A DNA stretch of 64,000 bases from Candidatus Woesebacteria bacterium (lineage in GTDB: Bacteria; Patescibacteriota; Microgenomatia; UBA8517). Below are positions 8,740 to 57,583 of the stretch, one piece after another. Within the stretch, counting starts at the first letter, position 1, and every line of letters starts with the position of its first letter. Position numbers and translations under genes: made by a program. A model generated the notes under the pieces. That model was not told where the DNA came from. It was given only the letters and a program-made list of their open reading frames with translations, and did no database searches. The stretch lies in contig JAGUYM010000011.1 of the NCBI GenBank assembly GCA_020061305.1, positions 2,996 through 66,995 of the forward strand, in the 5' to 3' direction.

Positions 8740-9432
8740 ATGAATGAATCTACCAGACGAAAGGTTAATTTAGATTTTGATCAAGAACCATCATTTCATC
8801 ATAAATTCAATTTAAAATTTGCACTTCCATATATAAAACATAAGAAGGTTTTAGATATTGGATGTTGGACTGGACAATTTGAAATGTTGGCTGCTTCACA
8901 TGCCAAAGAAATTTGGGGTATTGATCCTGGTGTAGAGGCTATAAAAATGGCCAAAAAATTGATCCCGAAAGCTAATTTCAAAACAGGTAATGCTCTAGAC
9001 CTTAAATTTAAAAACAAATATTTTGATACTGTAACACTAATGGATGTAATTGAACACATTCCAAAAGGGACTGAAGAAAAGTGTATAAAGGAGATTAATA
9101 GGGTTTTAAAACCAAACGGACATTTGATCATTTCAACACCTCACTCTCACCCACTCTCTACATTTTTAGACCCCGCATATTATTTAATAGGCCACAGGCA
9201 CTATTCTGAAAATTTTTTAAAAATGTTACTAGAAAATAATAATTTTAAAATAGTTAAAATTAAAAAAACTGGAAGAGTTTATAGAATACTAACAACTTTG
9301 ATGGAATATTTTTTTAAACATATATTAAAAGCTAAATTTAATATTCCAAAATGGCTCAAAAATAAAATTAAAGATGAATATAAAAGTAAAAATGCCTTTG
9401 CTCAAATAAATGTCGTTGCAATAAAAAAATAA
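8740..9432 (+). CDS. Class I SAM-dependent methyltransferase
   Basis: Motif I VLDIGCWTGQF, and a post-motif block LKPNGHLIISTPHS typical of Methyltransf_11/23-type enzymes. Confidence 0.7.
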   Translation: MNESTRRKVNLDFDQEPSFHHKFNLKFALPYIKHKKVLDIGCWTGQFEMLAASHAKEIWGIDPGVEAIKMAKKLIPKANFKTGNALDLKFKNKYFDTVTLMDVIEHIPKGTEEKCIKEINRVLKPNGHLIISTPHSHPLSTFLDPAYYLIGHRHYSENFLKMLLENNNFKIVKIKKTGRVYRILTTLMEYFFKHILKAKFNIPKWLKNKIKDEYKSKNAFAQINVVAIKK

Positions 9433-9434
9433 TT

Positions 9435-10190
9435 TCATATTTTTTTGCACTCAGCCACAAAAGAGTATGATAAATTGCTCAGCTTTATTTTTTGGTCAAC
9501 GCGTGCCAACCAAATAATAAATTTGCTCTCTTTCTTAAAAAGAGCAAAATATAGAAAATCAATTGCCAATATAATTGGCAATGTTAATGAATATAACCAA
9601 TGTCGTGTTAATTTAAACTTATTTCCCAAAAGTTTTATTAGATCTTTTTTAGAATAATGAGTATGAGAATCCCTCCCCAATGTAATATCGCCAATCATTC
9701 CTTGTTTCTTTTTTAACACAAATTCTTTTCTATATTCTTTTTCACCATAAAAATATTTATATAAAATCCGATGTAAATTAGGGAACAAAAACTTAATATT
9801 TCCAGTGTCTAAAAATCCAAACAAACCTTTGTTCAAACCATATATATATAAAGTTCCATTCTTTTTTAAGACCCTATGGATCTCGGACAATGTTTCTCTC
9901 TCATCTAAAACATGTTCTAAAACCCCCATCATCGTCACACAATCAAAAAAGTTTGACTTATATGGAATTTTTTCTCCTATACCAACTAATGAATAGTTTG
10001 CTTTTTGCTGTTTGTTTTTTAGTTTTTTAATAACAAGTGCATCTGCGTCACACGCATAAACTATTCTATTCTTTGAACACAAATTCTCAGAAAAACTACC
10101 ATTTCCACACCCAAAATCCAATATTTTTTTAGCACTATTAGGAATAGCTTTCATCACAATTTCTTCGCATAAAAAATCTTTATTATTCAT
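9435..10190 (-). CDS. Class I SAM-dependent methyltransferase
   Basis: Motif I ILDFGCGNGSF, followed by LKKNGTLYIYG. Confidence 0.7.
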   Translation of the reverse strand: MNNKDFLCEEIVMKAIPNSAKKILDFGCGNGSFSENLCSKNRIVYACDADALVIKKLKNKQQKANYSLVGIGEKIPYKSNFFDCVTMMGVLEHVLDERETLSEIHRVLKKNGTLYIYGLNKGLFGFLDTGNIKFLFPNLHRILYKYFYGEKEYRKEFVLKKKQGMIGDITLGRDSHTHYSKKDLIKLLGNKFKLTRHWLYSLTLPIILAIDFLYFALFKKESKFIIWLARVDQKIKLSNLSYSFVAECKKI

Positions 10191-10192
10191 AA

Positions 10193-10933
10193 TTAACTTT
10201 TCTGCGCAACAACAAACAAATCTGATGAAAGGCTTGGGAAATTTGAAAAAAGCTTGTCAAACAACTTCATATATTTAGGCAAATATTCGACCTCACCACC
10301 TCTTACTAAAACAGGATTAAATCCATAATATTCCAACAAATCGATTAAAGCTTTTAAAGTGAAAACTCTAATATGACCCAGCGAGGCTCTATTTTTAGTT
10401 AAATTTTGTGTAAACTTTAACCCCAAAGTTTTATCTTCATTGCTTACTTCTGTAAAAAAGGGTTGATAGCCAAACATAAAAATTATTCTATTAAACCATG
10501 CGGCCATGTTTGGGGTAGACAAATATAGTAATCCATCATTTTTTAAAACCCTTTTGGATTCTCTAATAAAATTATCAGTATCAAAAATGTGCTCTATCAC
10601 CTGTGAACTCACAATGTAATCGAAAGATTTTGATTTATAAGGCCATTTCTCATTAAGGTCGCCTCGTTTTACCAGTATTCCGTTTTGTCTAGCCTTTGAA
10701 ATTGCTACATTAGACAATTCCATCCCAAAAACATCAACCTTAAATTTATTTTTAATAAACGACCCCAATACACCTATTCCACATCCAGGTTCAAAAACCT
10801 TTGAATTCTTTTTTGGATTAAATTGTGTCTTGTAAAGAAAATATTCTGCTTGCTTACTTTTTTGTTTAACTATAATTGGATCGTTATAGTGCTTATCGTA
10901 AATATCTAAGTTTGTTTGATTTTTATTCGTCAT
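10193..10933 (-). CDS. Class I SAM-dependent methyltransferase
   Basis: Motif I VFEPGCGIGVLG, followed by LKNDGLLYLSTPN. Confidence 0.7.
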   Translation of the reverse strand: MTNKNQTNLDIYDKHYNDPIIVKQKSKQAEYFLYKTQFNPKKNSKVFEPGCGIGVLGSFIKNKFKVDVFGMELSNVAISKARQNGILVKRGDLNEKWPYKSKSFDYIVSSQVIEHIFDTDNFIRESKRVLKNDGLLYLSTPNMAAWFNRIIFMFGYQPFFTEVSNEDKTLGLKFTQNLTKNRASLGHIRVFTLKALIDLLEYYGFNPVLVRGGEVEYLPKYMKLFDKLFSNFPSLSSDLFVVAQKS

Positions 10934-10965
10934 ACATCTAGTATATCAAATATATTAAAGGTATT

Positions 10966-11994
10966 GTGAACAATATGAGTAGAAAATCATTACTTTCAAT
11001 TTCTGTAATTATCTATGCCAGAAATGAGGAATCCAATCTAAAAAGATTGTTTTCATCGCTTAAAAAACAGAATTACCCAAAAAACAAAATTGAATATATT
11101 TACATTGATGATAAATCTACAGACAGAAGTGTTTCGATTGCAAAAGAATTTGGAGCAAAAATATTTAGAGTTAATACCGGTGACATTGAACTTAACAAAG
11201 GCATTGGCATGCATAAGGCAAAGAACGACCTCGTCTATTGGATGGATGCAGATATGGAAGTTATTGATAAAGATTTCTTTCTAAAACTTTCTTATCCATT
11301 GCAAAAGGATCCAAAGATGTTTGCATCTTTTACAAACGAATTTGCGTTAGATAAAAAACATCCAGTTAAAAACTCATTTTTAAGATTTATTTCATACGAC
11401 CCACTCCAAAGGGACCCACTCTATCAAGTTTTCTCACCTTCTATTCAAGAAACTATTATCAGAAAAGGGGATGGATATTTTGTATGCAAATTTGTTCCAA
11501 AAAGAATTCCACCTGCAGGAAGAAGCATGTACAGAAGATTAAAGTTATTAAAAACTGATGTTAGCAAAAATGAATCCTTTATAGATCTTGAAACTTTAGA
11601 GATTGTCTCACGAGCAGGGCATCAACACTTCGCCTATGTTCCTGGTGCAAAAATAAGGCACTTCCATGCAGAAAATATAAATGTACTTATCAAAAAACGA
11701 TTAAGAAATTTAAGTCGCGATTACCTTCCAAATCTCGGAAATAAATACTACACATGGTTTGACCTCAAGAACCCAAAAGATGTTATCAAAATAATATCTT
11801 GGATTATTTGGGTTAATCTATTAATACCCGAGTCAATTGTCGGACTTTACAAGTCTATTAAATTTAAAGACCTTGCATTTTTATGGCAACCAATCGTTTC
11901 AGTAGTTACAACTGATTTAATTATTTTTTCAATTTTGACTTCAAAAGGAGGTTGGAAACTTATCTCTTCAATTTTTGGATCATCAAACCATTAA
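10966..11994 (+). CDS. GT2 family glycosyltransferase
   Basis: ISVIIYARNEESNL near the N-terminus, then IYIDDKSTD and a DxD-type segment VYWMDADMEV. It has a C-terminal hydrophobic tail. Confidence 0.7.
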   Translation: MNNMSRKSLLSISVIIYARNEESNLKRLFSSLKKQNYPKNKIEYIYIDDKSTDRSVSIAKEFGAKIFRVNTGDIELNKGIGMHKAKNDLVYWMDADMEVIDKDFFLKLSYPLQKDPKMFASFTNEFALDKKHPVKNSFLRFISYDPLQRDPLYQVFSPSIQETIIRKGDGYFVCKFVPKRIPPAGRSMYRRLKLLKTDVSKNESFIDLETLEIVSRAGHQHFAYVPGAKIRHFHAENINVLIKKRLRNLSRDYLPNLGNKYYTWFDLKNPKDVIKIISWIIWVNLLIPESIVGLYKSIKFKDLAFLWQPIVSVVTTDLIIFSILTSKGGWKLISSIFGSSNH

Positions 11995-12955
11995 GAAAGA
12001 AGATTCCATAGGTTAAATGGGTTGCAATTATTCCGATCGATACGATAAATGCATCTTTGATGCTAGCTCTCTTTATTACAGAAAGCATACCAAGTATTAC
12101 AAAAAATATAATTAAAAAGGTATATAAATAGAAAATTGTTAAGTTGTAAATTGATAGTAACAATCCAAGCAAAAATCCAAGTGCAAGAATTGAGGGTATA
12201 AAATAATCAAATCTTCTTGATGTTTCAGGAAATTTTTTTGCGAAATACCCTCTATGTGTTCCTATGTTTGAAATCTGTCTTAGATAGGGTAAAAACAATG
12301 CCCTTCTATGATGGTGCACCACGACTTCTGGATCATATATTATCTTATGTCCACCCTTGATTAATTTTAAACAAAGAAATGTATCCTCACCACCATAAAA
12401 ATGTGTCCCGTAACCACCGATTTTTTTCAAAACATCTTTTCTAACGACTAAATTATATGCAGGGTAATCATCAACAAACATCGCATGTTTTTTGACAAAT
12501 CGATGTTGTGCTTGGCCACCGCAAAAAAAAGAGCTATAAACAAGCCCTGTCAATTGCTCCCAATATTTGTCTTCTTTTGGAGTAATCCCCGGACCTCCAA
12601 CTGCAACAATTTGTGGATGGTTAAAATGAACTACCGCATTTTTCAACCAGTTTTTATCGGGGTAGGCATCATCGTCTATAAATGCACATATTTCTCCTTT
12701 TGCCGACTTTATTGCAATATCTCTTTTCTCAGCAGGTCCTGTTGTCTGTTTACCGGTAATTAAAACTCTAGTTTTTGGATTTTTAATCTCAATCTTTTTG
12801 TCGCTAACAATAATTATCTCATAATTTTTATAATTTAATTTATTAAATTTTTTTAAATCTACAAAAAAACGTTTTGTGTCAACATAATAAGGGATGATAA
12901 TTGATACTTTTGGATTATTTCTTGTGATTGAGCGCATCAAACGAGTATTTTTCAT
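11960..12955 (-). CDS. GT2 family glycosyltransferase with C-terminal TM segments
   Basis: VSIIIPYY near the N-terminus and DDD in ICAFIDDDAYPD. The C-terminal roughly 80 aa are hydrophobic. Confidence 0.6.
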   Translation of the reverse strand: MKNTRLMRSITRNNPKVSIIIPYYVDTKRFFVDLKKFNKLNYKNYEIIIVSDKKIEIKNPKTRVLITGKQTTGPAEKRDIAIKSAKGEICAFIDDDAYPDKNWLKNAVVHFNHPQIVAVGGPGITPKEDKYWEQLTGLVYSSFFCGGQAQHRFVKKHAMFVDDYPAYNLVVRKDVLKKIGGYGTHFYGGEDTFLCLKLIKGGHKIIYDPEVVVHHHRRALFLPYLRQISNIGTHRGYFAKKFPETSRRFDYFIPSILALGFLLGLLLSIYNLTIFYLYTFLIIFFVILGMLSVIKRASIKDAFIVSIGIIATHLTYGIFFLNGLMIQKLKR

Positions 12956-12987
12956 TTTTGGATATCATATCATCCAAAATTGATATT

Positions 12988-13641
12988 TCATAATTTTTTA
13001 ACGGCTAATAGTGAATATGCTTTCTTTGGATTTTTTCGAGTATATAATAAATTGGAAATTTCTGATATCAAACCCCAGATTATCTTTGGTTTGTATTTTA
13101 GTTCTGCTTTTTCACCTCTTAGACCTTTTAACCCATATCTTCCAAAAACTTTGTATCCTAACTTTTTGAAGTTGGAAACACCCCAACCAGACAGATGTTC
13201 TTGCAAGCCATTACCTTCACCTGTTTGATTAACAAAACCATTTGGAGTTAATAGAATTACTTTTTTGGAAGCAATGTGCTCCATTATTTTCAATAATTTG
13301 TAACCATCTTTTTTAGGTAAATGCTCAATAACATCCAATGCTATTACTGCATCAAAACTATTTTTCTTGAAATCTTCTTTAACTTCTAAAATGTTTTTGT
13401 GTAAATATTTGTCATGAATATTTAGTTTTTTACTTATATCAATTGATTTTTTAAAACCATCAACACCAACTAAATATTTTTTTCTATCTATAAACCCAAT
13501 TGGAGAATTATCACCACAACCTAAATCTAAAACAGAATCGCAATCAGAAAGTATATAATCAAGTTCCAAAGAAAACGTGAACAATGCAAGATTTGGAAAT
13601 GTCTTTTTGATTGTATTTACAAAATTCATATATTGATGCAT
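12988..13641 (-). CDS. Class I SAM-dependent methyltransferase
   Basis: Motif I VLDLGCGDNSPIG, acidic VGVDG, and KVILLTPNG. Confidence 0.65.
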   Translation of the reverse strand: MHQYMNFVNTIKKTFPNLALFTFSLELDYILSDCDSVLDLGCGDNSPIGFIDRKKYLVGVDGFKKSIDISKKLNIHDKYLHKNILEVKEDFKKNSFDAVIALDVIEHLPKKDGYKLLKIMEHIASKKVILLTPNGFVNQTGEGNGLQEHLSGWGVSNFKKLGYKVFGRYGLKGLRGEKAELKYKPKIIWGLISEISNLLYTRKNPKKAYSLLAVKKL

Positions 13642-13662: not shown

Positions 13663-15696
13663 TTACATATTTCCATGACTATTTGGAAATATTACGCCAT
13701 CTTCTAACTTTACAGGATTTAGCATAAAGCCTGATAAGTCTTCAATGACTTCTGCATTATATATATTAATTTCTAATAATTCATCGCTGGATTTATAGGA
13801 TTCAAATGTATCAAAACCAATGACCATATATTTTGCATCTTTTGGAATAGACCCAATAATGTCTTTGTTTTTATTTCTAGAGGAGAGTCTAACAGCAACT
13901 CTTTTAGTTATATCATCTATATCTTCTATTTTTTTATAAAAATTAACATAAACATAACCTCTTCCTTTTTCACTTGTCTTTGGATTTATATAAAAGCCTT
14001 TCCAATCTGAAACTTCGATTGGATCAGATGTCCAGATATTTGGTTTGTCATCAAACAATATTTTTTTAGCAAGAGTCTTCTTGATTATTTTGTATTTTGG
14101 AATTTTAGCAACTATGAAATTTGATTCAGGCGCTTGCCATTCTTTAAGCACTGAATAAACTGCATAGTCTGATAATTCACGAACAGACATCGCAGAATAT
14201 TTATTCTCAAGCATTTCTACTGGCTTATTCCAATACAACAAAGATTGTTTAGTATCTTGCGTCATCCAATCGTAAAAATCTGTTGTAGACCAGTCAAGAC
14301 TTGAAACAACCAAATCGGCACCTTTTTCGCTAAATTCTCGCATACTAAAATCGTCTGACACAAAGTTATATGGAACTACCTTTTCAATAGTATTTGGTAG
14401 AGGAACTGATGCGTGAGCTGCCACAACTGATTTGTCAGGAATATTTTTGTTAACCCAAGCGCCTAATATTTTATAATTCCATGGTTTGATATATTCTCTT
14501 ATCACAACAAATGAATTTAATAGACTTTCGTAACCTATAAATCCAACTACAATTAATATAAATAAATTATTTTTAAAAACTTTAGAAACAAAAACGCTAG
14601 TAAAAATTAGAATAAGGGGAATTATTGTTACAAAGTTTCTGGTATAAAACCCTCCACCTGTATAAACAGTTGTTATAAATAAAAATGGAAGTATTACAGA
14701 TAAAATTAATATGGTGTTTAGTTTTTTGTAATAAAAAGCTACAATAATGCCAAGAATTGAAAGTATCGATGCAATTTTCCCTATTCCAATGTGATAAAGA
14801 TAGGAGTAAGGAAAAAAATCAAATTCCATTCTTCCCGTTCGATACTTACCCGAAACAGACGAAAGCCAGGCTCTTGTCTCATCTAATTTTATTAAATGGT
14901 AAGGATTTAAAACTACAAATAAAACAGCAATGATGACAGGTATCATCATCGCCATCGGTTTAAACAAAAACTTTAATCTTAATTTATTATCTTTTTGTTT
15001 ATACACATTTACTAAATGGGCCAAAAGTAATGGTGTAAATGCAAAAAATTGATATTTTGTTGAAAATGACAAACCCGCAAAAATTGCTGACCAAAAATAA
15101 TTTTTGTTAGTTGGTTTTTCAAAAACATTTAAAGTAAACCATAAAGAAAGAAGCAAATAAAATGAATTATAAATATCAGGAAGACCTAAATGACTATTCA
15201 AAACATGCCTATAATTAATAGCAACAAAGAAAGCACTTAAAAGTCCCGCTTTTGTGCTATACAACCTACGTGTTATCATGAAAGTTAAAATAACTATTAA
15301 AACTCCAATGGTCGCGGTAACATACCTACCCCAAAACAACGCATTTATCCATCTGTCTCCCAATGTAACACGGTAAAAAAAATCATGAAATTTTTCTGCT
15401 TCTTTTGGTATTTCAAGGTGCCCGGCAGGATAATTTAAATAATTTCTAACTAAAAATTTTGACCATTCAACTGGGATAAAAAATGTTTGATATGCAATAT
15501 AATTAGTAAGCGGTGTCATAATCGGATAATCGTAACGAAGAGGATCAAAATTTCCGTTAACTATCATTGAAGAAGCTGCAGAATATGAAATTCCATCATC
15601 AGAATGATAAGGTGGATAACCTGGATTTATACCAACAAAACGAAGTATTACTGCTACGATAAGTATAACAAAAAACAATTTAGTATTAGTCTTCAT
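13663..15696 (-). CDS. GT-C-like polytopic membrane glycosyltransferase (ArnT/PMT-like)
   Basis: 677 aa. The N-terminal roughly 400 aa have many TM helices and an early conserved acidic loop (YHSDDG). The C-terminal roughly 250 aa are soluble. Confidence 0.45.
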   Translation of the reverse strand: MKTNTKLFFVILIVAVILRFVGINPGYPPYHSDDGISYSAASSMIVNGNFDPLRYDYPIMTPLTNYIAYQTFFIPVEWSKFLVRNYLNYPAGHLEIPKEAEKFHDFFYRVTLGDRWINALFWGRYVTATIGVLIVILTFMITRRLYSTKAGLLSAFFVAINYRHVLNSHLGLPDIYNSFYLLLSLWFTLNVFEKPTNKNYFWSAIFAGLSFSTKYQFFAFTPLLLAHLVNVYKQKDNKLRLKFLFKPMAMMIPVIIAVLFVVLNPYHLIKLDETRAWLSSVSGKYRTGRMEFDFFPYSYLYHIGIGKIASILSILGIIVAFYYKKLNTILILSVILPFLFITTVYTGGGFYTRNFVTIIPLILIFTSVFVSKVFKNNLFILIVVGFIGYESLLNSFVVIREYIKPWNYKILGAWVNKNIPDKSVVAAHASVPLPNTIEKVVPYNFVSDDFSMREFSEKGADLVVSSLDWSTTDFYDWMTQDTKQSLLYWNKPVEMLENKYSAMSVRELSDYAVYSVLKEWQAPESNFIVAKIPKYKIIKKTLAKKILFDDKPNIWTSDPIEVSDWKGFYINPKTSEKGRGYVYVNFYKKIEDIDDITKRVAVRLSSRNKNKDIIGSIPKDAKYMVIGFDTFESYKSSDELLEINIYNAEVIEDLSGFMLNPVKLEDGVIFPNSHGNM

Positions 15697-15724: not shown

Positions 15725-16912
15725 ATGAATTTATTTTCTAAAACATATCACAAATATTTAAATCTACTAGTTAAAAATTTAGTTCCAACTAAAGAAGCAA
15801 AAAATTATATAGTTTTTAAAAACTCACTTGCCTACTCTGAAGACATACAAAAAGATATAAAAGAAACCTATAAAAAAAGTCGTGGGGACACTAGAGTTTT
15901 GGTAATTTATTTTAATTTTTTGTGGAAACCCATACTTGATTTGGCACAGTTCCTAAATTTAAGAAGTCCCAAAGAAACAAAGGAACCAAATTGGCTTTCA
16001 CCAGATGATATAAATAATATATTTTATCTTGAAAACTTTGAAAAAGTTAAAGAAGGCAAATATTTAGTCTTCCCATTCCCTGGAAAATTATTTGAAATAC
16101 TAAATAAGATTATCTCGAATTTGCCACTAATAAAGGAGTTATCACTTATTACCTATCAAATTTATCGACCATTATTTAAACCTAAAAAATATAGTGTCTC
16201 AATAATTATCCCGGCCAGAAATGAATCAGGAAACATTGTGGGATTAATTTCAAAATTACCTAAATTTAATACAAAAACTGAGGTTATCTTTGTTGAAGGT
16301 CATTCAAAAGATAATACTTACGAGAAAATTATTAATGAAATAAAACAAAACAAAAGAAAAGATATTGCAAGTTATGTTTTTAAGCAAAATGGAATTGGAA
16401 AAAATGATGCAGTTAAGCTGGGCTTTGAAAAAGCAAAAAATGATATTTTAATAGTTTTGGATGCTGACTTAACAGTTAAACCAAAAGAACTTAAAAAGTT
16501 TTACGATGCTATTTGTGAGGGTAAGTCCGATTTAGTAATAGGGACACGGCTTGTTTACCCAATGGAAAAACAAGCAATGAGACTTTTAAATTATTTTGGC
16601 AACAAAATGTTCAGTATTTTATTTAGTTTTATAATTGATCAAAAAATCAAAGATACACTTTGTGGTACAAAGGCAATTTTAAAAAGTAATTATTTAAAAA
16701 TAAAATCAAATCAAAGATACTTTGGGAATTTTGACCCATTTGGTGATTTTGATTTAATATTTGGAAGCGCAAAATTAAATTTTAAAATAACGGAAGTTCC
16801 GGTTAGATACGGTCAAAGAAAATATGGCCAGACAAATATTGATAGGTTTAGACACGGATTGTTGCTTTTAAGGATGGTTTATCTAGGCTTATTAAAATTA
16901 AAATTCGTATGA
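15725..16912 (+). CDS. GT2 family glycosyltransferase (DPM1/polyprenol-phosphate-sugar synthase-like) with a 150-aa N-terminal extension
   Basis: YSVSIIIPARNESGNI, VIFVEGHSKDNT and ILIVLDADLTV in the C-terminal two thirds. Confidence 0.65.
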   Translation: MNLFSKTYHKYLNLLVKNLVPTKEAKNYIVFKNSLAYSEDIQKDIKETYKKSRGDTRVLVIYFNFLWKPILDLAQFLNLRSPKETKEPNWLSPDDINNIFYLENFEKVKEGKYLVFPFPGKLFEILNKIISNLPLIKELSLITYQIYRPLFKPKKYSVSIIIPARNESGNIVGLISKLPKFNTKTEVIFVEGHSKDNTYEKIINEIKQNKRKDIASYVFKQNGIGKNDAVKLGFEKAKNDILIVLDADLTVKPKELKKFYDAICEGKSDLVIGTRLVYPMEKQAMRLLNYFGNKMFSILFSFIIDQKIKDTLCGTKAILKSNYLKIKSNQRYFGNFDPFGDFDLIFGSAKLNFKITEVPVRYGQRKYGQTNIDRFRHGLLLLRMVYLGLLKLKFV

Positions 16913-18369
16913 AAGTGAATGGTCAAATCCATAGAATATATATTCTGTTAATTGTACTGATCTCACTTCTTATTTGGAAACCAATATTTGACCAGGTGCC
17001 AATGGGTGAGGGTTATTATTATTTCGACAAATGCCAAAACAAATTTATAGTCCCAAGTGACTGTCCAACAACAATTTGGCAATATGATAACTTAGCCAGA
17101 ATTTCCTTCCAAATAATGATTCCGCTTTTCAAGGATAATATTCATTTATACATGTTTGCTCAAATCGGCATGATGTTACTTCTATATATAACTTTTTATC
17201 TTGTCATGTCAAAAGTCACAAAAAATCCGATGCTTGCTTTTTTTACCGTTCTCGTCTTTCTAACAAACCATACTGGTTCATTTTCAATGATGGCTATCGG
17301 CAATTATCAGAGATTTGTTCAAAGAGTACCCAATTTAATACCCATACTAATTTCATTTTACTTTATATTTAAATATTTCGATACTAAAAAGTATAGTAAC
17401 TTAGTAAAATCAATCATCCTTTATGCATTGGGTTTCTATTTAGCACATCACAGTATTTTTATGCTTCCCCTTTTTGCCGCATTTATATTTTTAAATACAA
17501 TTTCTCAGAAATTGAGCTTCAAATCGGTAATCATAAATATAGGAATTATAATAATCCTATCAGGAATATCAATCGTTTTATCTTTAACTGATCACTTTGT
17601 GCCAAAACAGGGATTAATGAGCTTTATTATAACAACACCTCAAATTATTGAAAAAACAATGCTTCAGGTGCCCAACCTACTAGTCCCAACTGAAATTGTA
17701 AGGTTAATTGCAAGAAATTGGCCTATCTCACCTATTCCCTATCCATTTTCTTTTGTGCTTGAGCTTTTCGCGGTACCTTTATTTTTAATATTAATAATTT
17801 CACTATTCTTAGTTAAAAACAACACAAACGCAAAATTAATTCTTAAAAGTGCAATTCTTGCATTGCCCGTAGTTTGTCTATTAAACCTCTATTCATACGG
17901 AGATGGAGCACCACATCCATTACGAGATTTTGGTGAAGACAGAATATACTTTATACCATCAATTTATGGCTCAATCCTGCTAGGCTACTTTATAAACTCA
18001 ATTTATGTAAAAGGGAAAATACTAAGCAAGTTTATAGCTATTGCAATATTAATAACTTATGTTTTCTATAATTCGCATTTAATCCAAAGGGATTCAAAAA
18101 AACTAACTCCAACTTCAACTAAAATGGAGCAATTTATTGAATATGTAAAAGCCAAGACACATAACAGAGATGCAAAAATTATGATTGTTGGACCCTCACA
18201 TCTACTTTGGCCAATTCAATTTGTTACATTGTTTTATAATACCAACAACAATTTATCATTTGCACTTGATTCATCAAGTTGGGGTGAGACAATTAGTAAG
18301 TCGGATTATGATGAGATTAAATCAATAGATTATATTGATAACAAAATTTTAGAAAAAACAATTAAATGA
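16909..18369 (+). CDS. Polytopic membrane protein of unknown family (possible GT-C-like)
   Basis: 486 aa and about 11 TM helices. It is start-overlapped with the upstream GT2 gene. Confidence 0.35.
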   Translation: MKVNGQIHRIYILLIVLISLLIWKPIFDQVPMGEGYYYFDKCQNKFIVPSDCPTTIWQYDNLARISFQIMIPLFKDNIHLYMFAQIGMMLLLYITFYLVMSKVTKNPMLAFFTVLVFLTNHTGSFSMMAIGNYQRFVQRVPNLIPILISFYFIFKYFDTKKYSNLVKSIILYALGFYLAHHSIFMLPLFAAFIFLNTISQKLSFKSVIINIGIIIILSGISIVLSLTDHFVPKQGLMSFIITTPQIIEKTMLQVPNLLVPTEIVRLIARNWPISPIPYPFSFVLELFAVPLFLILIISLFLVKNNTNAKLILKSAILALPVVCLLNLYSYGDGAPHPLRDFGEDRIYFIPSIYGSILLGYFINSIYVKGKILSKFIAIAILITYVFYNSHLIQRDSKKLTPTSTKMEQFIEYVKAKTHNRDAKIMIVGPSHLLWPIQFVTLFYNTNNNLSFALDSSSWGETISKSDYDEIKSIDYIDNKILEKTIK

Positions 18370-19115
18370 GAGATCTAGACGCCAAGGAATCGCTACTGGA
18401 ACACAAGAAGATAATTAATTCAAAGTTATTTTTGAAAAATGTATATATCGATTTCTACAAAATATTAAAGAGTCATAAAGCACCAAAAAAAGGATTATTA
18501 ATTGAAGTTGGCTCTGGTGGAGGATTTTTAAAAAGATTTATTCCAAAAGTTATAACAACAGATGTTTTAAAAGTAGATGGTATCGATAGAAAACTTGACC
18601 TCGAAAATATCAAATTAAAATCCAATTCTGTATCTGCATTTTACATGTTGAATGTTTTCCATCATATTAAAAATCCAAAAAGGGCACTTTCCGAAATGGA
18701 AAGGTGTCTCGTTGATGAAGGAAAAATAATCATGATCGAGCCATGGCCAACTATTTTTTCTAAATTTATATACAAAAATTTTCACCACGAAACATTTGAT
18801 ACCAATTCTGATTGGAAAGTTAGAGGAACAGGAAGAATGTCAGACGCAAATGGTGCACTCCCTTGGATAATTTTTAAAAGAGACAAACAAAAGTTTGAAA
18901 AGTTATTTCCTAATTTAAAAATCGAGATTGTAAAACCACACACCCCATTTAAATATCTGCTTTCAGGAGGACTGTCACATAAACAAGTGCTCCCTAGCTT
19001 TTTTTACCCCTTTTTAAATATTATAGAAATCCCATTAAGACCATTTAATAAATTTCTTGCCATGTTTGCAACAATTATCATTTCAAAGGCAGGCATTCAT
19101 ATAGAACATGACTAA
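18366..19115 (+). CDS. Class I SAM-dependent methyltransferase
   Basis: Motif I LLIEVGSGGGFL, acidic VITTDV, and LVDEGKIIMIEP. Confidence 0.6.
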   Translation: MRDLDAKESLLEHKKIINSKLFLKNVYIDFYKILKSHKAPKKGLLIEVGSGGGFLKRFIPKVITTDVLKVDGIDRKLDLENIKLKSNSVSAFYMLNVFHHIKNPKRALSEMERCLVDEGKIIMIEPWPTIFSKFIYKNFHHETFDTNSDWKVRGTGRMSDANGALPWIIFKRDKQKFEKLFPNLKIEIVKPHTPFKYLLSGGLSHKQVLPSFFYPFLNIIEIPLRPFNKFLAMFATIIISKAGIHIEHD

Positions 19116-19833
19116 ATGGTCGGCCCTTGTGTGGGTATGTAGTTTTTACCTTAAAACCATAACTTTTGAATAATTTTTTCCATTCACTATCACTTCTATA
19201 ATTTACATTCGTATCTATTAATTTGTTATTAAAAATAATTGGTAATATCAATACATCAGTAATGTAGGTGAAAATATATTTTAATAATGGCTTTTGGATA
19301 ATCTCTGCAACAACTAATTTCCCGTTCGGATTCAAGTTTTTCTTGCAAGCATCAAGTACTCCTTCTTGAGCTTCTCTACTGGGCAAGTGGTGAAAAACAT
19401 GAATTAACAAAATTGCATCAACTTTCTCTATTTTCTCTTTTAAAATATTGCCTACCTTAAATTTTACATTCTTAAGTCCTTTGTTACTCTCAACAAGTCT
19501 TGATTTGTTTAGTTCTATACCAAATACTTTTCTACTTTTTGATGATAATCCTAAATAATTTGCCATTAAGCCATCACCACTTCCCAAGTCTATTATTTGT
19601 CCTTTTTTAGGAACAATTTTTTCAATTTCCTGATATGGAGCATCCCAAACTCTAATTAATTTAAAAAGTGAAGAGAATCCTTGTCCTTTGTATAGATCTA
19701 TCGTTTTTTTCAAATCATTACTCATTTTTGGTTTACCAAAAATATTAAAATAAACATTAAAAAACATTTCGATTAAAAACAACAAAAATTGCTTAATGGT
19801 TTTCATTCTTGTATTATACTGCCATGAAGACAA
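19078..19833 (-). CDS. Class I SAM-dependent methyltransferase
   Basis: Motif I IIDLGSGDGLMANYL, followed by LNPNGKLVVAEI. The true start is probably the internal MKTIKQ methionine. Confidence 0.65.
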   Translation of the reverse strand: MSSWQYNTRMKTIKQFLLFLIEMFFNVYFNIFGKPKMSNDLKKTIDLYKGQGFSSLFKLIRVWDAPYQEIEKIVPKKGQIIDLGSGDGLMANYLGLSSKSRKVFGIELNKSRLVESNKGLKNVKFKVGNILKEKIEKVDAILLIHVFHHLPSREAQEGVLDACKKNLNPNGKLVVAEIIQKPLLKYIFTYITDVLILPIIFNNKLIDTNVNYRSDSEWKKLFKSYGFKVKTTYPHKGRPFSHVLYECLPLK

Positions 19834-20753
19834 AAATATCAGTCGTAATCCCAGTTTGGAACGAAGAAGGTAATATTAATATTCTCTATTCCAAACTCCG
19901 CGAAACACTACTTAAGATTGATAAAAATTTTGAAATTATTTTTATCAACGATGGTAGTTTTGATAATTCGTACCAACTACTTAAAAAAATCGCAAAAAGG
20001 GATAAAAAAGTAAAGTTAATTTCTTTTTCAAGAAATTTTGGCCACATGTCTGCCATAAATGCTGGACTAGAACACTCAACCGGTGAGAGAGTTGTTGTTA
20101 TGGATGCTGACATGCAGGACCCACCATTTGTAATTGAAAAAATGTACAAAAAATCACTAGAAGGTTTTGATGTCGTATATGGTGTTAAAAAGAAAAGAAA
20201 AGAAAATTTTATACGGGTTTACATGATGAAAGTTTTTTACAGGTTACTAAGTAAAATTTCAAACATTAAAATTCCACTTGATGCCGGCACATTCTCCCTA
20301 GTTACACGAAAAGTTGTTAATCACATAAATGAGCTGCCCGAGAGAAATAAATACTACAGCGGTCTTCGGGCATGGGCTGGCTACAGCCAAACTGGAATAA
20401 CCTACGAGAGAGCCAAAAGATACAAAGGTAAAGAAGCAAGCTATGCAAGGCTTTTTAAACTTGCAATGGATCAAATTGTTTCATTTTCATTTGTCCCACT
20501 TAAACTTGCAAGCTTTTTAGGATTTATATTTTCTTTTATTGCGTTCTTAATGATCATTGTTTTATTTATCTTAAAGTTCTTTGTAAATCTTGGAATCGTT
20601 GGATGGACTTCTACCATTACAACAATTTTACTAATTGGCGGAGTTCAACTTATTACACTTGGAATAATTGGTGAATATCTAGCTAGAATTTATGATGAAG
20701 TAAAACACAGACCTGAATATATTGTTAAGGAAAAAATAAACTTCAAAAAATAA
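19809..20753 (+). CDS. Polyprenol-phosphate glycosyltransferase, GtrB/ArnC/DPM1-like GT2 with two C-terminal TM helices
   Basis: ISVVIPVWNEEGNI...IIFINDGSFDNS...VVVMDADMQDPP, plus a C-terminal pair of TM helices. This is the canonical layout of bactoprenol-P sugar synthases. Confidence 0.75.
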   Translation: MYYTAMKTKISVVIPVWNEEGNINILYSKLRETLLKIDKNFEIIFINDGSFDNSYQLLKKIAKRDKKVKLISFSRNFGHMSAINAGLEHSTGERVVVMDADMQDPPFVIEKMYKKSLEGFDVVYGVKKKRKENFIRVYMMKVFYRLLSKISNIKIPLDAGTFSLVTRKVVNHINELPERNKYYSGLRAWAGYSQTGITYERAKRYKGKEASYARLFKLAMDQIVSFSFVPLKLASFLGFIFSFIAFLMIIVLFILKFFVNLGIVGWTSTITTILLIGGVQLITLGIIGEYLARIYDEVKHRPEYIVKEKINFKK

Positions 20754-39977: not shown

Positions 39978-40342
39978 TTTTTACTTAAAATATTAATTAA
40001 TGCATTTATTGACATTGACAAATATTCATATTTTTGTCTTAACATCAAATACTTTTCATTACTAATATAACCTAAGTCTTTCGAAACTAACAGATGATAA
40101 ATTACTTCTCCTGAAGAACCACGAGATGTATATAAAAATTGAACCAATTCTTTGGTTGTATGACGATAAAAACCTTCTAGGATATTAGTAGGTATTGATA
40201 GAGCCGACCTTCGAATTTGTGAAATAAGTCCAAACAATTCTTCTTTTGGAAATTTTTTAGTTATTGTATAAATTTCCATAGCAAGTTTATGTGACCCTTG
40301 CCATATCTTTAAATCTTCAAATTTAGTTATTTGTTTTTTCAT
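39974..40342 (-). CDS. Four-helix-bundle protein of the Avd / 23S rRNA intervening-sequence protein family (TIGR02436-like)
   Basis: 122 aa. FEDLKIWQ...A..IY..TKKFPKEELFGLISQIRRSALSIPTNILEG matches the family consensus well. Confidence 0.75.
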   Translation of the reverse strand: MKKQITKFEDLKIWQGSHKLAMEIYTITKKFPKEELFGLISQIRRSALSIPTNILEGFYRHTTKELVQFLYTSRGSSGEVIYHLLVSKDLGYISNEKYLMLRQKYEYLSMSINALINILSKK

Positions 40343-40354: not shown

Positions 40355-40392
40355 TCACTAATCACAAGTCACTAATCACTATTGTTGTTCAC
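40355..40392. repeat. TCACNNN heptamer array (copy A): TCACTAA TCACAAG TCACTAA TCACTAT ... TTCACTG
   Basis: It lies in the 46-bp gap between the four-helix-bundle gene start and the end of the GT39-like gene. It is the reverse complement of the copy at 39938..39966, identical at 21 of 24 positions (three pyrimidine transitions). Confidence 0.8.
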
Positions 40393-56014: not shown

Positions 56015-56045
56015 GTATATATCTTACTACAATTAGGCAGAACGA

Positions 56046-56933
56046 CTAAATCTTTAAAAAGACCGCCTCATCGCTGACTATTGACGCCTTCTTTTGCTTC
56101 TTTCGTTCTTTTATAAGAACTGATAGTTTAAGTAAGGCAAAAAAAACAATTTTAATGTAGCCCGGGTGCTCAAATACTCTTTTTATAACCCCTCGCAAAT
56201 GTTTTTTAAACATATTTGGACTATGAATGTTCTTCCAAATCATCAAAAGCTGATTCCTTTCCCTTATTATATCAACCTTTTTTTGATTTAATTTGGAAAT
56301 AGTAGATTCATGTTTATGATTTACTTTTGAATCAGGATCCCATAAACAATAGTAGCCTTGTTTGTATGCTCTATAACATAGATCTAAATCTTCCCAATAA
56401 TACGGTGATAATAAATTCTCGTCCAGCCCTCCCAATTCTTTCCACACTTCTTTTTTAAAAACTCCGCTTCCACCACTGACATAAAAGGATCTTTTAGATT
56501 TATTGTCTTCTTTTCCCATTGAAAGCTCTATGTAACCGTCCTTAAAATTGCCAACGGCAGGACCATAACCCCTCTCGTGCATTGATATTCCAAATAATTT
56601 TTTGTCATCGTTAAATAATTTTTGAATAGAAATTAAAAAATCATGACTTGGAGAAACATCGTTATTTAATAAAACTAATAAATCTCCCTTAGCAGATCTT
56701 GCTCCAGTGTTGGTTGTGGCTGAAAAGCCCCTGTTTTTTGTGTGTTTAATTAGATTAATTTCTGATTTAAGACTATTTAAGTAAATCAAACTATCATCTG
56801 TTGAAAAATCATCAACGACAATTATTTCCTGTATATTATTTTTTGGATTATTTTTTGCAGATATTACTGCAGGTAAGTTTTTCTCAAGTAGTTCTTTACC
56901 ATTGTAATTTGTAATTATTATTGATGCTTTCAT
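56046..56933 (-). CDS. GT2 family glycosyltransferase
   Basis: ASIIITNYNGKELL...IIVVDDFSTDDS...LLVLLNNDVSP. Confidence 0.7.
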   Translation of the reverse strand: MKASIIITNYNGKELLEKNLPAVISAKNNPKNNIQEIIVVDDFSTDDSLIYLNSLKSEINLIKHTKNRGFSATTNTGARSAKGDLLVLLNNDVSPSHDFLISIQKLFNDDKKLFGISMHERGYGPAVGNFKDGYIELSMGKEDNKSKRSFYVSGGSGVFKKEVWKELGGLDENLLSPYYWEDLDLCYRAYKQGYYCLWDPDSKVNHKHESTISKLNQKKVDIIRERNQLLMIWKNIHSPNMFKKHLRGVIKRVFEHPGYIKIVFFALLKLSVLIKERKKQKKASIVSDEAVFLKI

Positions 56934-57583
56934 TGTGTTTTTCTAACCTTAATTAAGTGTAACATTCCAAGATTAAATTTTTTATTAACCTCAATCTTAA
57001 AACCTGCTTTTTTGACGGCAGTAACTAGATAATTATTCCTATATGTTTGAATATGTGTATCTCTCCAAACCCACCCTCTTGGATAGAAATGAAGCCACAA
57101 CCACCAAACAATTTTGAATAAATTATTATCAGACGGAACCAAAAATACTCCATAGCCGCCCTTTTTCATAACCCTCTTAAACTCTTTAAAGACTTTCATA
57201 GGATCAGCAACATGCTCTAAAGCCTCAAGACAAAAAACTGCATCAAAGTAATTGTTAGCAAAAGGCAATTTGTGTGCATCACCTACTGTAAATTTCATTC
57301 TTTTATTTTTTGCCCAATGCTTTTTTGCCCAAGCTATCGAAGTCTTAACCACATCAAGACCAATAAATTTTTTAGGATTAATTTTCTTAAAAATAACGTT
57401 TGAAAAAACTCCATCCGCACAACCTACATCTAATACAAATTCTGCAGGTGTCGCCACTTTCCTAACTTCTCTAAACCTGGTGTTATGCCAGATTCTTTGG
57501 AAAAAATCTTTTTTTAAACTTTGATGGTACCAATCAGCAGGTACATGTTCATGTAAATTTTCTGCAATCTTTTTTGTATCCAT
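56930..57583 (-). CDS. Class I SAM-dependent methyltransferase
   Basis: Motif I VLDVGCADGVFSNVI, acidic GLDVV, and MKKGGYGVFLVPS. Confidence 0.7.
   Translation of the reverse strand: MDTKKIAENLHEHVPADWYHQSLKKDFFQRIWHNTRFREVRKVATPAEFVLDVGCADGVFSNVIFKKINPKKFIGLDVVKTSIAWAKKHWAKNKRMKFTVGDAHKLPFANNYFDAVFCLEALEHVADPMKVFKEFKRVMKKGGYGVFLVPSDNNLFKIVWWLWLHFYPRGWVWRDTHIQTYRNNYLVTAVKKAGFKIEVNKKFNLGMLHLIKVRKTQ

What the first reader, a model, noticed from the sequence alone, without database searches (positions are those of the whole stretch)
8740..57583. Ten paralogous small SAM methyltransferases interleaved with GT2 genes
Ten ORFs of 217-251 aa each carry a class I SAM motif I (DxGxGxG variants) and a conserved LKxxGxLxxSTPN-like block. 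They start at 8740, 9435, 10193, 12988, 18366, 19078, 20754, 27906, 29392 and 56930. Most sit immediately next to a GT2 gene, sometimes with start/stop overlap. This looks like repeated methyltransferase-glycosyltransferase modules, and suggests a heavily O- or N-methylated glycan, or sequential methylation of a lipid-linked intermediate. This many paralogous small methyltransferases in one glycan locus is uncommon.
Basis: partly seen in the sequence, partly recalled or inferred. Interest (0 to 1): 0.6.

Follow-up and report, generated by a model that had tools for sequence, protein, structure and literature searches.

The report
Methyltransferase-rich surface-glycan locus, CPR bacterium
A tiny uncultured (CPR/Patescibacteria) bacterium devotes more than 64 kb to sugar-coating its surface, and ten different small methyl-adding enzymes are built into that locus, which points to heavily methylated surface sugars; the kind of enzyme is ordinary, but the number and the way some are wired to lipid-sugar-making enzymes are not yet described.

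Summary
All ten ORFs exist at the stated coordinates (217-251 aa), and all pass Pfam class I SAM-methyltransferase (MT) thresholds. None reaches an NCBIfam cutoff for UbiE, UbiG, rRNA or any other named MT. They are old paralogues, not local duplicates. In-window identity is 23-42%. MT1-MT4 have positional orthologues at 67-85% in a related groundwater contig, and MT1, MT5 and MT9 each have their own family elsewhere.

The window is a 98%-coding glycosylation island of a Patescibacteria genome:
- 12 GT2, 4 GT4 and 2 Wzx-like flippases.
- About 23 polytopic membrane proteins, many of them GT-C-like.

"Most sit next to a GT2" is really 5 of 10, which is no more than shuffling gives (P=0.36). The module idea is better supported by three other results:
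- A cassette of polyprenyl-phosphate GT2, sometimes a membrane protein, then MT5 recurs in 6 of 6 contexts examined.
- That GT2 carries a truncated MT domain here and an intact one in Woesebacteria/Microgenomates homologues.
- Distant MT9 relatives are MT domains embedded in multidomain glycosyltransferases.

Most likely these are cytoplasmic glycan-tailoring MTs acting on lipid-linked or nucleotide-activated sugars. Substrates and O- versus N-methylation remain untested. Multi-MT glycan loci are typical of this lineage, and this one is at the high end.

The parts
8740..9432 (+). MT1. Class I SAM MT of a Patescibacteria-specific family, with invariant LDIGCWTGQ (Trp at the central Gly of motif I) and DP...GHRHY signatures. 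Monocistronic, and divergent from a 542-aa GT-C-like membrane protein.
   Evidence: Pfam. Family alignments A2/A3. AF2 pLDDT 94.4. Foldseek top hits are AtmM and RebM. The pairing with the 540-542-aa membrane protein is conserved in L004 and L005.
9435..10190 (-). MT2. Class I SAM MT with canonical GCGNG and one C-terminal hydrophobic segment. Second gene of the MT3-MT2 pair.
   Evidence: Has a 70% orthologue in L004.
10193..10933 (-). MT3. Class I SAM MT (MetW/Methyltransf_23-like). Its family is always beside a 322-342-aa GT2.
   Evidence: Context in the window, L004, L011 and L013.
10966..11994 (+). GT2 with two C-terminal TM segments, divergent partner of MT3.
11960..12955 (-). GT2, best sub-threshold match MftF-like. 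Last gene of the operon GT-C, MT4, GT2.
12988..13641 (-). MT4. Class I SAM MT (motif I GCGDN), lying between a PMT_2 GT-C and the MftF-like GT2.
   Evidence: Has an 85% orthologue in the same position in L004.
13663..15696 (-). GT-C (PMT_2) membrane glycosyltransferase, first gene of the MT4 operon.
15725..16912 (+). GT2-395. A polyprenyl-phosphate-type glycosyltransferase (residues about 158-395). Its N-terminal region of about 155 residues is a truncated MT domain: motif I and strands beta1-3 are deleted.
   Evidence: Homologues of 440-483 aa carry Pfam MT domains plus GT2. Alignment A4. AF2 pLDDT 89. The Foldseek top 18 hits are all ArnC, DPMS or GtrB.
16909..18369 (+). 486-aa polytopic membrane protein with no Pfam match, translationally coupled between GT2-395 and MT5.
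   Evidence: Present in the same position in L024, L026 and L027.
18366..19115 (+). MT5. Class I SAM MT (EVGSGGG) of a very large Patescibacteria family, and a conserved partner of GT2-395.
   Evidence: 1849 homologues. Cassette found in 6 of 6 contexts.
19078..19833 (-). MT6. Class I SAM MT that also matches Methyltransf_2 (O-methyltransferase domain). Divergent from a PgfS/ArnC-like GT2.
   Evidence: Its family lies beside PMT_2 GT-C genes in L007, L026 and L027, and one gene away from one in L005.
19809..20753 (+). GT2 with three C-terminal TM segments. PgfS/ArnC-like polyprenyl-phosphate sugar synthase (below curated cutoffs).
20754..21434 (-). MT7. Closest in-window relative of MT1 (39%), sharing the GHRHY motif. 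Last gene of a GT2-GT2-MT7 operon, with a 4-bp overlap.
21431..23343 (-). Two GT2 genes (21431-22471 and 22468-23343) upstream of MT7.
27906..28628 (+). MT8. Class I SAM MT (GASSG) with a borderline NodS Pfam match. First gene of the MT8-deacetylase-MT9 operon.
   Evidence: (NodS 25.0 bits against a cutoff of 24).
28610..29392 (+). NodB-family polysaccharide deacetylase. It has no TM segment and keeps the HSYTH metal motif.
29392..30117 (+). MT9. Class I SAM MT (GCGRM, with Tyr where the others have the conserved His) and a C-terminal TM segment. Small family.
   Evidence: 23 representatives at E<=1e-30, and distant relatives embedded in GT4/GT2 multidomain proteins.
56046..56933 (-). GT2, best sub-threshold match MftF-like. 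Overlaps the MT10 stop codon by 4 bp.
56930..57583 (-). MT10. Class I SAM MT (GCADG), lying between a 512-aa GT-C-like protein and the GT2.

Best explanation
The ten ORFs are genuine, anciently diverged class I SAM-dependent methyltransferases. They belong to the cell-envelope glycosylation machinery of a Patescibacteria (CPR, Microgenomates/WWE3-like) bacterium.

Proposed mechanism:
- The MTs have no signal peptides and need SAM, so they work on the cytoplasmic face.
- They methylate sugar units that neighbouring GT2/GT4 enzymes build on polyprenyl-phosphate carriers, or possibly on nucleotide sugars.
- The products are then flipped (Wzx-like or unknown membrane proteins).
- The many GT-C-type membrane glycosyltransferases transfer them to surface acceptors.
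- The outcome would be a surface glycan repertoire carrying several different methyl groups.

Shown:
- MT identity.
- Non-housekeeping status.
- Old paralogy, with separate orthologue families.
- Glycan-locus context.
- A conserved cassette of MT5 with a polyprenyl-phosphate-type GT2.
- MT-GT2 gene fusions in relatives.

Inferred:
- That the substrates are glycans.
- That methylation happens on lipid-linked intermediates.
- That the MT8-deacetylase-MT9 unit N-methylates a de-N-acetylated amino sugar, by analogy with NodB/NodS.
For: - Pfam MT domains are above threshold in all ten. The beta2 acidic residue is conserved in all ten, and the His after strand beta4 in 9 of 10.
- MT1 folds confidently as a class I MT (pLDDT 94.4). 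Sugar 4'-O-MTs AtmM and RebM are the top Foldseek hits.
- No NCBIfam equivalog cutoff is reached for UbiE, UbiG, RlmA, Erm, BioC or CmoB.
- Window content: 12 GT2, 4 GT4, at least 7 PMT_2 GT-C, 3 PTPS_related proteins, 2 Wzx-like flippases and a NodB-like deacetylase.
- Orthologues at 67-85% keep their position in L004/L024, whereas in-window pairs reach only 23-42%.
- MT-rich GT2/GT-C loci recur in WWE3, Levybacteria, Roizmanbacteria and Woesebacteria.
- The MT5 cassette occurs in 6 of 6 contexts.
- GT2-395 homologues are MT-GT2 fusions. The GT2 domain's best 18 structural matches are ArnC, DPMS and GtrB.
- Seven of 10 long MT9-related proteins that were scanned are MT domains fused to GT4/GT2.
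- Precedents: AglP, a methyltransferase of the Haloferax dolichol-phosphate-based N-glycosylation pathway (PMC3871713); the WsaE MT+GT fusion (PMC2943079); MftM, whose glucan methylation may protect the chain from cellulase (PMC9679996).
Against: - No MT matches a characterised sugar MT family above a curated cutoff. MftM scores 39 bits against a cutoff of 200.
- The Foldseek field for MT1 is flat. C-MTs, N-MTs and SpnF score within 1-3 orders of magnitude of the sugar O-MTs, with TM-scores of only 0.6-0.7.
- The profile's best PDB sequence hits are phosphoethanolamine N-MTs and uncharacterised MTs.
- Immediate MT-GT2 adjacency is at chance level given the window's gene content.
- Several motif I variants are unusual (Trp in MT1; the third Gly lost in MT4 and MT9) and SAM binding is untested.
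- The organism is uncultured, so no glycan chemistry exists.
Confidence: 0.6

Rival explanations
1. The MTs are chain-terminating cappers. As with WbdD in E. coli O8/O9a or the MT domain of WsaE, each methylates the non-reducing end of a finished polymer to stop elongation and flag it for export.
For: MT domains fused to GT4/GT2 polymerase-like proteins are the nearest distant relatives of MT9. The WsaE precedent applies (PMC2943079). MT7 and MT10 are translationally coupled to GT2 genes.
Against: No ABC transporter (Wzm/Wzt) or kinase domain appears among the 54 ORFs. The flippases are Wzx-like. Ten different cappers in one locus would be excessive. The best-conserved partner of MT5 is a monosaccharide-lipid synthase type of GT2, not a polymerase.
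Confidence: 0.12
2. The MTs act on non-glycan substrates, such as membrane lipids, polyprenyl or quinone-like molecules, or proteins. On this view they are merely co-located with envelope genes in a compact genome.
For: The best PDB sequence hits of the family profile are phosphoethanolamine N-MTs and UbiG. The best sub-threshold NCBIfam hits are UbiG/UbiE. A VKOR-DHODH fusion, an SDR, a PNPOx-like protein and an AKR lie in the same locus. In-window adjacency to GT2 is not above chance.
Against: All UbiE/UbiG scores are far below their cutoffs. Specific MT-GT pairings and MT-GT fusions are conserved across divergent genomes. This is hard to explain without a shared pathway.
Confidence: 0.15
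3. A substantial fraction of the ten are catalytically dead MT-fold proteins that serve as scaffolds or specificity subunits of glycosyltransferase complexes.
For: One MT-derived domain in the window is certainly degenerate: the N-terminus of GT2-395 lacks motif I. Motif I is non-canonical in MT1, MT4, MT7, MT8, MT9 and MT10. MT9 has Tyr where the others have His. The relative L004 carries a 64-aa MT fragment.
Against: The Trp of MT1 is invariant across 67 family members at 41-77% identity, along with other motif residues. It is therefore a selected family trait, not decay. The beta2 acidic residue is kept in all ten. Gly-to-Ser/Ala variants of motif I are common in active MTs (general knowledge).
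Confidence: 0.1

Closest known systems
AglP, a methyltransferase of the Haloferax volcanii N-glycosylation pathway (PMC3871713)
   Same: A stand-alone SAM-dependent MT encoded among GT2-type glycosyltransferases (AglJ/G/I/E). [quoted passage not shown] GT2-395's best NCBIfam match, below cutoff, is AglJ.
   Different: AglP is one MT in its pathway and makes a methyl ester of a hexuronic acid. Here there are ten or eleven unrelated MT families. No sequence-level orthology to AglP was tested. The organism is a bacterium with GT-C rather than AglB-centred transfer.
WsaE (Geobacillus stearothermophilus S-layer glycan) and WbdD (E. coli O8/O9a)
   Same: An MT domain physically or genetically coupled to glycosyltransferase domains. 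Methylation of a lipid-linked glycan takes place in the cytoplasm (PMC2943079). MT-GT fusions also occur among relatives of GT2-395 and MT9.
   Different: Those systems cap a polymer for ABC-transporter export. This window has no Wzm/Wzt and no kinase domain. The fused GT2 is of the ArnC/DPMS/GtrB monosaccharide-lipid synthase type.
MftF/MftM (mycofactocin oligoglucoside and its 2-O-methylation; PMC9679996)
   Same: A GT2 plus a small class I MT giving a methylated glucan, with methylation suggested to protect against glycosidase. The GT2 genes at 11960 and 56046, next to MT4 and MT10, have MftF as their best sub-threshold match. MT1, MT2 and MT7 hit MftM weakly.
   Different: Scores are far below the curated cutoffs (103 against 280 bits; 39 against 200 bits). 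No mycofactocin genes are present. mftM is not clustered with mftF in mycobacteria.
RebM/AtmM indolocarbazole sugar 4'-O-methyltransferases (PDB 3bus, 6uv6)
   Same: They are the top structural neighbours of the MT1 model (E 2e-16 and 1e-15). The His after strand beta4 (the 'EH' of MT1) lies where RebM's proposed catalytic His pair lies; this last point is from my own recollection and was not verified here.
   Different: Identity is only 16-17% and TM-scores are 0.66-0.70. Many non-sugar MTs score almost as well. Their substrates are secondary-metabolite glycosides.
Three-component extracytoplasmic glycosylation (GtrB/GtrA/GtrC, ArnC/ArnT, CsbB/YfhO; summarised in PMC13390465)
   Same: Polyprenyl-phosphate GT2 enzymes (19809, 23846, 15725) plus many GT-C membrane transferases lie in the same locus.
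   Different: No GtrA-family flippase was detected. None of the precedents I checked (AglP, WsaE, MftM) shows an MT working within such a three-component system. Here MTs are fused to, or conserved beside, the lipid-sugar synthase.
NodB/NodS (Nod-factor de-N-acetylation followed by N-methylation)
   Same: A cytoplasmic NodB-family deacetylase is flanked by MT8 and MT9 and overlaps both. MT8 just reaches the NodS Pfam cutoff.
   Different: Generic MT models score far higher for MT8 than NodS does. There are no NodA/NodC equivalents. The analogy is positional only.

Membership tests
Class I (Rossmann-fold) SAM-dependent methyltransferases | Match to curated MT domain models above threshold | tested here: met
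   All ten exceed Pfam gathering scores for Methyltransf_11 and/or 23/25/31. MT5 is the weakest, at 35.8 bits against a cutoff of 21.2.
Class I (Rossmann-fold) SAM-dependent methyltransferases | Gly-rich motif I and an acidic residue at the end of strand beta2 that binds the SAM ribose | tested here: met
   The first Gly is invariant and Asp/Glu at beta2 is present in all ten. The rest of motif I is variable: GCWTG, GSSFG, GASSG, GCADG, GCGDN, GCGRM.
Class I (Rossmann-fold) SAM-dependent methyltransferases | Seven-stranded alpha/beta fold | tested here: met
   MT1 model has pLDDT 94.4. More than 1600 PDB methyltransferase-fold matches at E<=1e-3. The other nine were not modelled.
Class I (Rossmann-fold) SAM-dependent methyltransferases | SAM binding and methyl transfer | not testable with these tools
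   Needs biochemistry.
   Best UbiG score is 64.4 bits against a cutoff of 103 (MT8). Best UbiE score is 60.5 against 216 (MT10).
rRNA methyltransferases (RlmA, Erm) | Score at or above the NCBIfam equivalog cutoff | tested here: not met
   RlmA(I) PRK11088 best score is 57.6 against 303. Erm scores 27 against 212.
Mycofactocin oligosaccharide methyltransferase MftM | NCBIfam NF041255 cutoff, and co-occurrence with mft genes | tested here: not met
   Best score is 38.9 bits against a cutoff of 200. No mft genes are in the window.
NodS N-methyltransferase | Pfam PF05401 as the best-fitting model, and a Nod gene context | tested here: inconclusive
   MT8 scores 25.0 bits against a cutoff of 24, but Methyltransf_11 scores 86 bits. 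A NodB-family deacetylase is adjacent. There is no NodA/NodC.
WbdD/WsaE-type chain-terminating methyltransferases | Coupling to an ABC-transporter (Wzm/Wzt) export pathway, with or without a kinase domain | tested here: not met
   No ABC transporter or kinase domain appears in any of the 54 ORFs. The flippases are Polysacc_synt/Wzx-like.
Sugar O-methyltransferases of the RebM/AtmM type | Specific structural or sequence similarity exceeding that to other MT classes | tested here: inconclusive
   They rank first for MT1 (E 2e-16), but TleD, MitM, SpnF and PEAMT follow at 1e-15 to 1e-13.
Polyprenyl-phosphate glycosyltransferases (ArnC/GtrB/DPMS; applies to GT2-395, partner of MT5) | GT-A catalytic domain structurally closest to ArnC/GtrB/DPMS | tested here: met
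   The Foldseek top 18 hits are all ArnC, DPMS or GtrB (3.8e-15 to 1e-9). Other GT2 enzymes appear only from 1e-9.
Polyprenyl-phosphate glycosyltransferases (ArnC/GtrB/DPMS; applies to GT2-395, partner of MT5) | C-terminal transmembrane helices, and a curated family score | tested here: not met
   The hydropathy scan finds no TM segment, only a C-terminal helix at residues 374-393. AglJ scores 112 bits against a cutoff of 325.

The most novel reading that the evidence does not exclude
In this CPR lineage the methyltransferases are an integral fourth component of 'three-component' extracytoplasmic glycosylation. An MT domain fused to, or an MT such as MT5 conserved beside, an ArnC/GtrB/DPMS-type synthase would methylate the polyprenyl-phosphate monosaccharide itself on the cytoplasmic face. 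The many GT-C enzymes would then decorate the cell surface with pre-methylated sugars. I found no described example of methylated polyprenyl-phosphate sugar donors in the papers I searched. The ten MT families would then encode a combinatorial methyl-sugar code on the surface of an episymbiotic bacterium.
Probability: 0.25. Interest if true: 0.7.

Novelty: new variant of a known kind. Interest (0 to 1): 0.48.

Why it matters
Patescibacteria make up a large share of bacterial diversity. All cultivated members live attached to other microbes, and almost nothing is known about their surface chemistry. This locus and its relatives show that one lineage invests several percent of a small genome in surface glycosylation, and couples it to an unusually large and old set of methyltransferases.

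Methyl groups make sugars more hydrophobic. The MftM study suggests they also protect glycans from glycosidases (PMC9679996). They could therefore shape host attachment, phage recognition and resistance to degradation.

The conserved cassette offers a concrete, clonable test. It consists of an MT-fused polyprenyl-phosphate GT2, an optional membrane protein, and MT5. Expressing it would show whether lipid-linked monosaccharide donors can be methylated before flipping. That would add a step to a widely used glycosylation scheme.

Tried and rejected
- **Housekeeping enzymes.** I tested whether any of the ten is a housekeeping MT. None reaches an NCBIfam cutoff, so this is rejected.
- **Recent tandem duplication.** Rejected. 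In-window identity is 23-42%, each MT has closer orthologues elsewhere, and GC/GC3 equals that of the rest of the window.
- **Adjacency to GT2 as a signal.** A shuffle test shows it is not significant. I dropped it as evidence and replaced it with cross-genome synteny and fusions.
- **N-terminus of GT2-395 against the MT profile.** hhalign found nothing (probability 0.2%). The homology emerged only from full-length homologues that still carry the MT domain.
- **Literature searches.**
  - Searches for CPR glycosylation and methyltransferases returned nothing relevant.
  - A search for RebM catalytic residues returned nothing relevant.
  - A search for MT domains on polyprenyl-phosphate GTs returned one paper, which I used only for its summary of the multi-component GT-A/GtrA/GT-C glycosylation system.
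- **Genome-contig scan.** It used only the single motif LD[IV]G[CS]WTG[QP] and returned 17 loci. None is the source species. Ten carry the label 'uncultured Gammaproteobacteria', which I distrust because the named hits are all Patescibacteria.
- **tRNA and Rfam scans.** Both were empty.
- **Defence-system reading.** I did not pursue the weak 'GT4-conflict' Pfam hits. The generic GT4 models score far higher.

Full report
**1. The observation**

The window has about 30% G+C and is about 98% coding. Four lie on the + strand (8740, 18366, 27906, 29392) and six on the - strand.

Each exceeds Pfam gathering scores for the generic class I SAM-methyltransferase models Methyltransf_11/23/25/31. A profile built from the ten recovers exactly these ten among all window ORFs of at least 120 aa.

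In the alignment (A1):
- Only the first glycine of motif I is invariant.
- MT2, MT3, MT5 and MT6 have canonical GxGxG.
- MT1 has GCWTG, MT4 GCGDN, MT7 GSSFG, MT8 GASSG, MT9 GCGRM and MT10 GCADG.
- The acidic residue at the end of strand beta2 is present in all ten.
- A His following strand beta4 ('EH') is present in nine.
- The LKxxGxL block (motif III) is present in nine.

**2. The surroundings**

Pfam and NCBIfam scans of the other 44 large ORFs show a glycosylation island containing:
- 12 GT2, 4 GT4 and 2 Wzx-like flippases.
- At least 7 PMT_2-type GT-C enzymes, four of them tandem paralogues at 40389-46422.
- Three tandem PTPS_related membrane proteins and two GT87-like proteins.
- Several further polytopic proteins with no Pfam match. 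The hydropathy scan counts 23 multi-pass proteins.
- A NodB-family deacetylase.
- A redox block comprising a VKOR-DHODH fusion, an SDR, a PNPOx-like protein and an AKR.

No ABC transporter, kinase, tRNA or Rfam element is present.

The source is a metagenomic contig of up to 77 kb that is also found in an NCBI MAG. Homologues that carry names are all Patescibacteria: WWE3, Levybacteria, Roizmanbacteria, Woesebacteria, Curtissbacteria and Microgenomates. One more GT2 and an eleventh MT lie immediately left of the window.

**3. Is it more than chance?**

Ten MTs among 54 ORFs is far above any plausible background. The probability is about 1e-7 if 2% of genes are such MTs; that rate is my assumption. 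Nine of the ten fall within 22 consecutive genes (P=0.009 by shuffling).

The specific claim that most MTs sit next to a GT2 is weaker. Five of ten do (MT3, MT4, MT6, MT7, MT10), and a shuffle of the gene labels gives 3.98 on average (P=0.36).

Start/stop overlaps with neighbours are real for MT5, MT7, MT9 and MT10. Twelve of the 14 strand switches in the window lie between 8.7 and 30.1 kb, so the MT-rich part is a mosaic of one- to three-gene units.

**4. Paralogues: local duplication or separate lineages?**

- Pairwise identity among the ten is 23-42%.
- MT1-MT4 have positional orthologues at 67-85% identity in a syntenic groundwater contig (L004/L024). MT6 has a 48% orthologue in a WWE3 contig.
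- MT1 has more than 100 homologues at 40-78% identity.
- MT5 has 1849 homologues at E<=1e-5, and the top 120 are all at least 50% identical.
- MT9 has a small family of 23 representatives at E<=1e-30.
- Single-linkage clustering at 40% identity puts the ten into nine groups. The 75 MTs from 25 related loci fall into 25 groups.
- GC and GC3 of the MT genes equal those of the rest of the window.

The MTs are therefore old, separately maintained families. They are neither recent tandem duplicates nor recent imports.

**5. Not housekeeping enzymes**

No NCBIfam model reaches its curated cutoff for any of the ten. The best UbiG score is 64 bits against a cutoff of 103, the best UbiE score 60 against 216, and RlmA 58 against 303.

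**6. Evidence that the MTs belong functionally to the glycosyltransferases**

(a) The operon GT2-395 (15725-16912), 486-aa membrane protein, MT5 recurs as a cassette in all six contexts examined. In two of them the membrane protein is absent. The contexts are the window, L024, L025 (Woesebacteria), L026, L027 and L028.

(b) Many homologues of GT2-395 at 52-60% identity are 440-483 aa long and carry Pfam MT domains in front of the GT2 domain. Alignment A4 shows that the window protein and its closest relatives have lost about 55-70 residues holding motif I and the first strands. Its N-terminal region of about 155 residues is thus a methyltransferase remnant. A direct profile comparison had missed this.

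(c) The AF2 model of GT2-395 (pLDDT 89) has ArnC, Pyrococcus dolichyl-phosphate mannose synthase and GtrB as its 18 best PDB matches. Other GT2 enzymes appear only from E about 1e-9. The fused or partnered glycosyltransferase is therefore of the polyprenyl-phosphate monosaccharide synthase type.

(d) The MT3 family is beside a 322-342-aa GT2 in 4 of 4 loci. The MT6 family is beside a PMT_2 GT-C in L007, L026 and L027, one gene away from one in L005, and beside a PgfS/ArnC-like GT2 here.

(e) Of ten long proteins among MT9's distant relatives, seven have the MT domain embedded between GT4 and/or GT2 domains.

(f) L028 also has a GT2+MT fusion of 510 aa directly after its MT5 homologue.

**7. 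The MT1 family**

Sixty-seven members at 41-77% identity share several invariant residues:
- LDIGCWTGQ, with Trp in place of the central glycine of motif I.
- E105-H106.
- D144-P145.
- H152-R153-H154-Y155.

The Trp is therefore a selected family trait rather than decay.

The model is confident (pLDDT 94.4). Its top Foldseek hits are the sugar 4'-O-methyltransferases AtmM and RebM. However, C-MTs, N-MTs and a cyclase of the same fold follow within one to three orders of magnitude, so this supports the interpretation only weakly.

A motif-based scan of species-representative genomes found the family in only 17 loci. All the credibly named ones are Patescibacteria.

**8. How common is this?**

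Loci around MT1-family genes in other Patescibacteria hold 0.5-2.4 MTs per 10 kb, together with GT2 and GT-C genes. The close relative L004/L024 has eight MTs plus a 64-aa fragment across the syntenic stretch. It also has an extra GT2-GT2-MT block and an inserted epimerase.

The window has 1.56 MTs per 10 kb overall and 4.2 per 10 kb between 8740 and 30117. Many MTs in a glycan locus is thus a trait of the lineage, and this locus is at the high end.

**9. Mechanism proposed**

None of the ten has an N-terminal signal-like segment. MT2, MT6 and MT9 each have a single internal or C-terminal hydrophobic segment. SAM is cytoplasmic. The MTs should therefore act before flipping.

I propose that they methylate sugars on polyprenyl-phosphate-linked or nucleotide-activated intermediates made by the adjacent GT2/GT4 enzymes. 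Wzx-like or unknown membrane proteins then flip the products, and the GT-C enzymes transfer them.

The MT8-deacetylase-MT9 operon resembles NodB/NodS in arrangement. The deacetylase is cytoplasmic and keeps the HSYTH metal motif. This suggests N-methylation of a de-N-acetylated amino sugar, but the link is positional only.

Precedents:
- AglP, a methyltransferase of the Haloferax dolichol-phosphate-based N-glycosylation pathway (PMC3871713).
- The MT domain of WsaE, fused to two rhamnosyltransferase domains (PMC2943079).
- MftM, whose 2-O-methylation was suggested to protect a beta-1,4-glucan from cellulase (PMC9679996).

The general GT-A/flippase/GT-C scheme is summarised in PMC13390465.

**10. 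Limits**

- Substrate, regiochemistry and even SAM binding are untested.
- The structural and sequence neighbours of these MTs are functionally heterogeneous.
- GT2-395 lacks predicted transmembrane helices and stays below curated family cutoffs.
- The in-window interleaving by itself is not statistically informative.

**11. Verdict**

The enzymes are ordinary in kind. Three features have no described counterpart that I could find:
- The scale of the locus.
- The antiquity of the MT families.
- The coupling of MTs to polyprenyl-phosphate sugar synthases in Patescibacteria.

I rate it a new variant of a known kind, of moderate interest.

Noticed in passing
window 15725-16204 (+): The N-terminal region (about 155 aa) of the 395-aa GT2 is a truncated methyltransferase domain. 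Motif I and the first strands are deleted relative to 440-483-aa MT-GT2 fusion homologues in Woesebacteria/Microgenomates.
   Followed up: yes
window 35449-36984 (-): Fusion of a VKOR membrane domain (residues 9-131) with a quinone-type dihydroorotate dehydrogenase that passes the TIGR01036 cutoff. It sits inside a glycan operon next to an SDR, a PNPOx-like protein and an aldo-keto reductase. This is odd for a lineage generally thought to lack quinones.
   Followed up: partly
window 40389-46422 (-) and 51146-56014 (-): Four tandem PMT_2 GT-C paralogues (27-31% identity) and three tandem PTPS_related membrane paralogues (29-40%). About 23 polytopic membrane proteins lie in the 64 kb overall.
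   Followed up: partly
window 1343-8700 (-): A block of 792-aa, 118-aa (3718-4074, about 3 TM), 1008-aa and 542-aa membrane proteins with no Pfam match. Corresponding genes occur in L004 in the same order, in part in WWE3 (L005), and in similar-sized form in Woesebacteria (L025). The 542-aa protein is the divergent partner of MT1.
   Followed up: partly
L001 1-1367 (just left of window position 1): One more GT2 (279 aa) and an eleventh Methyltransf_23-type MT (at least 235 aa) continue the locus beyond the window edge.
   Followed up: partly
L002 and L003 (contigs from two other assemblies): Both contigs end within 8 bases of the 3' end of MT1 (window about 9432). This may mark a strain-level breakpoint at the start of the MT-rich mosaic.
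   Followed up: no
L004 11554-11748; L004 12497-15233; L024 14102-15043: The 67-85% identical relative carries a 64-aa MT fragment, an extra GT2-GT2-MT block and an inserted epimerase. This indicates gain and loss of small modules within otherwise conserved synteny.
   Followed up: partly
window 39974-40342 (-): A 122-aa ORF in the 411-bp gap. From memory it resembles the four-helix-bundle '23S rRNA intervening sequence' protein family. Not tested.
   Followed up: no
window 60178-61165: A 238-aa GT2 that matches the Pfam model only from profile position 38 (N-terminally short). It is preceded by a 271-bp gap holding a 49-aa ORF. Possibly a decayed paralogue of 61129-62046 and 39093-39977.
   Followed up: no
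L026 1295-2575 and L027 1270-2550: In two distant relatives an FAD amine-oxidase-like protein (426 aa) sits between two MTs, directly upstream of the MT5 cassette and next to a PMT_2 gene. It is absent from the window.
   Followed up: no
L028 1305-4573: In one relative the MT-GT2/MT5 cassette lies directly after dxr and an RseP-type protease. Genes of this kind usually neighbour polyprenyl-lipid synthesis genes.
   Followed up: no
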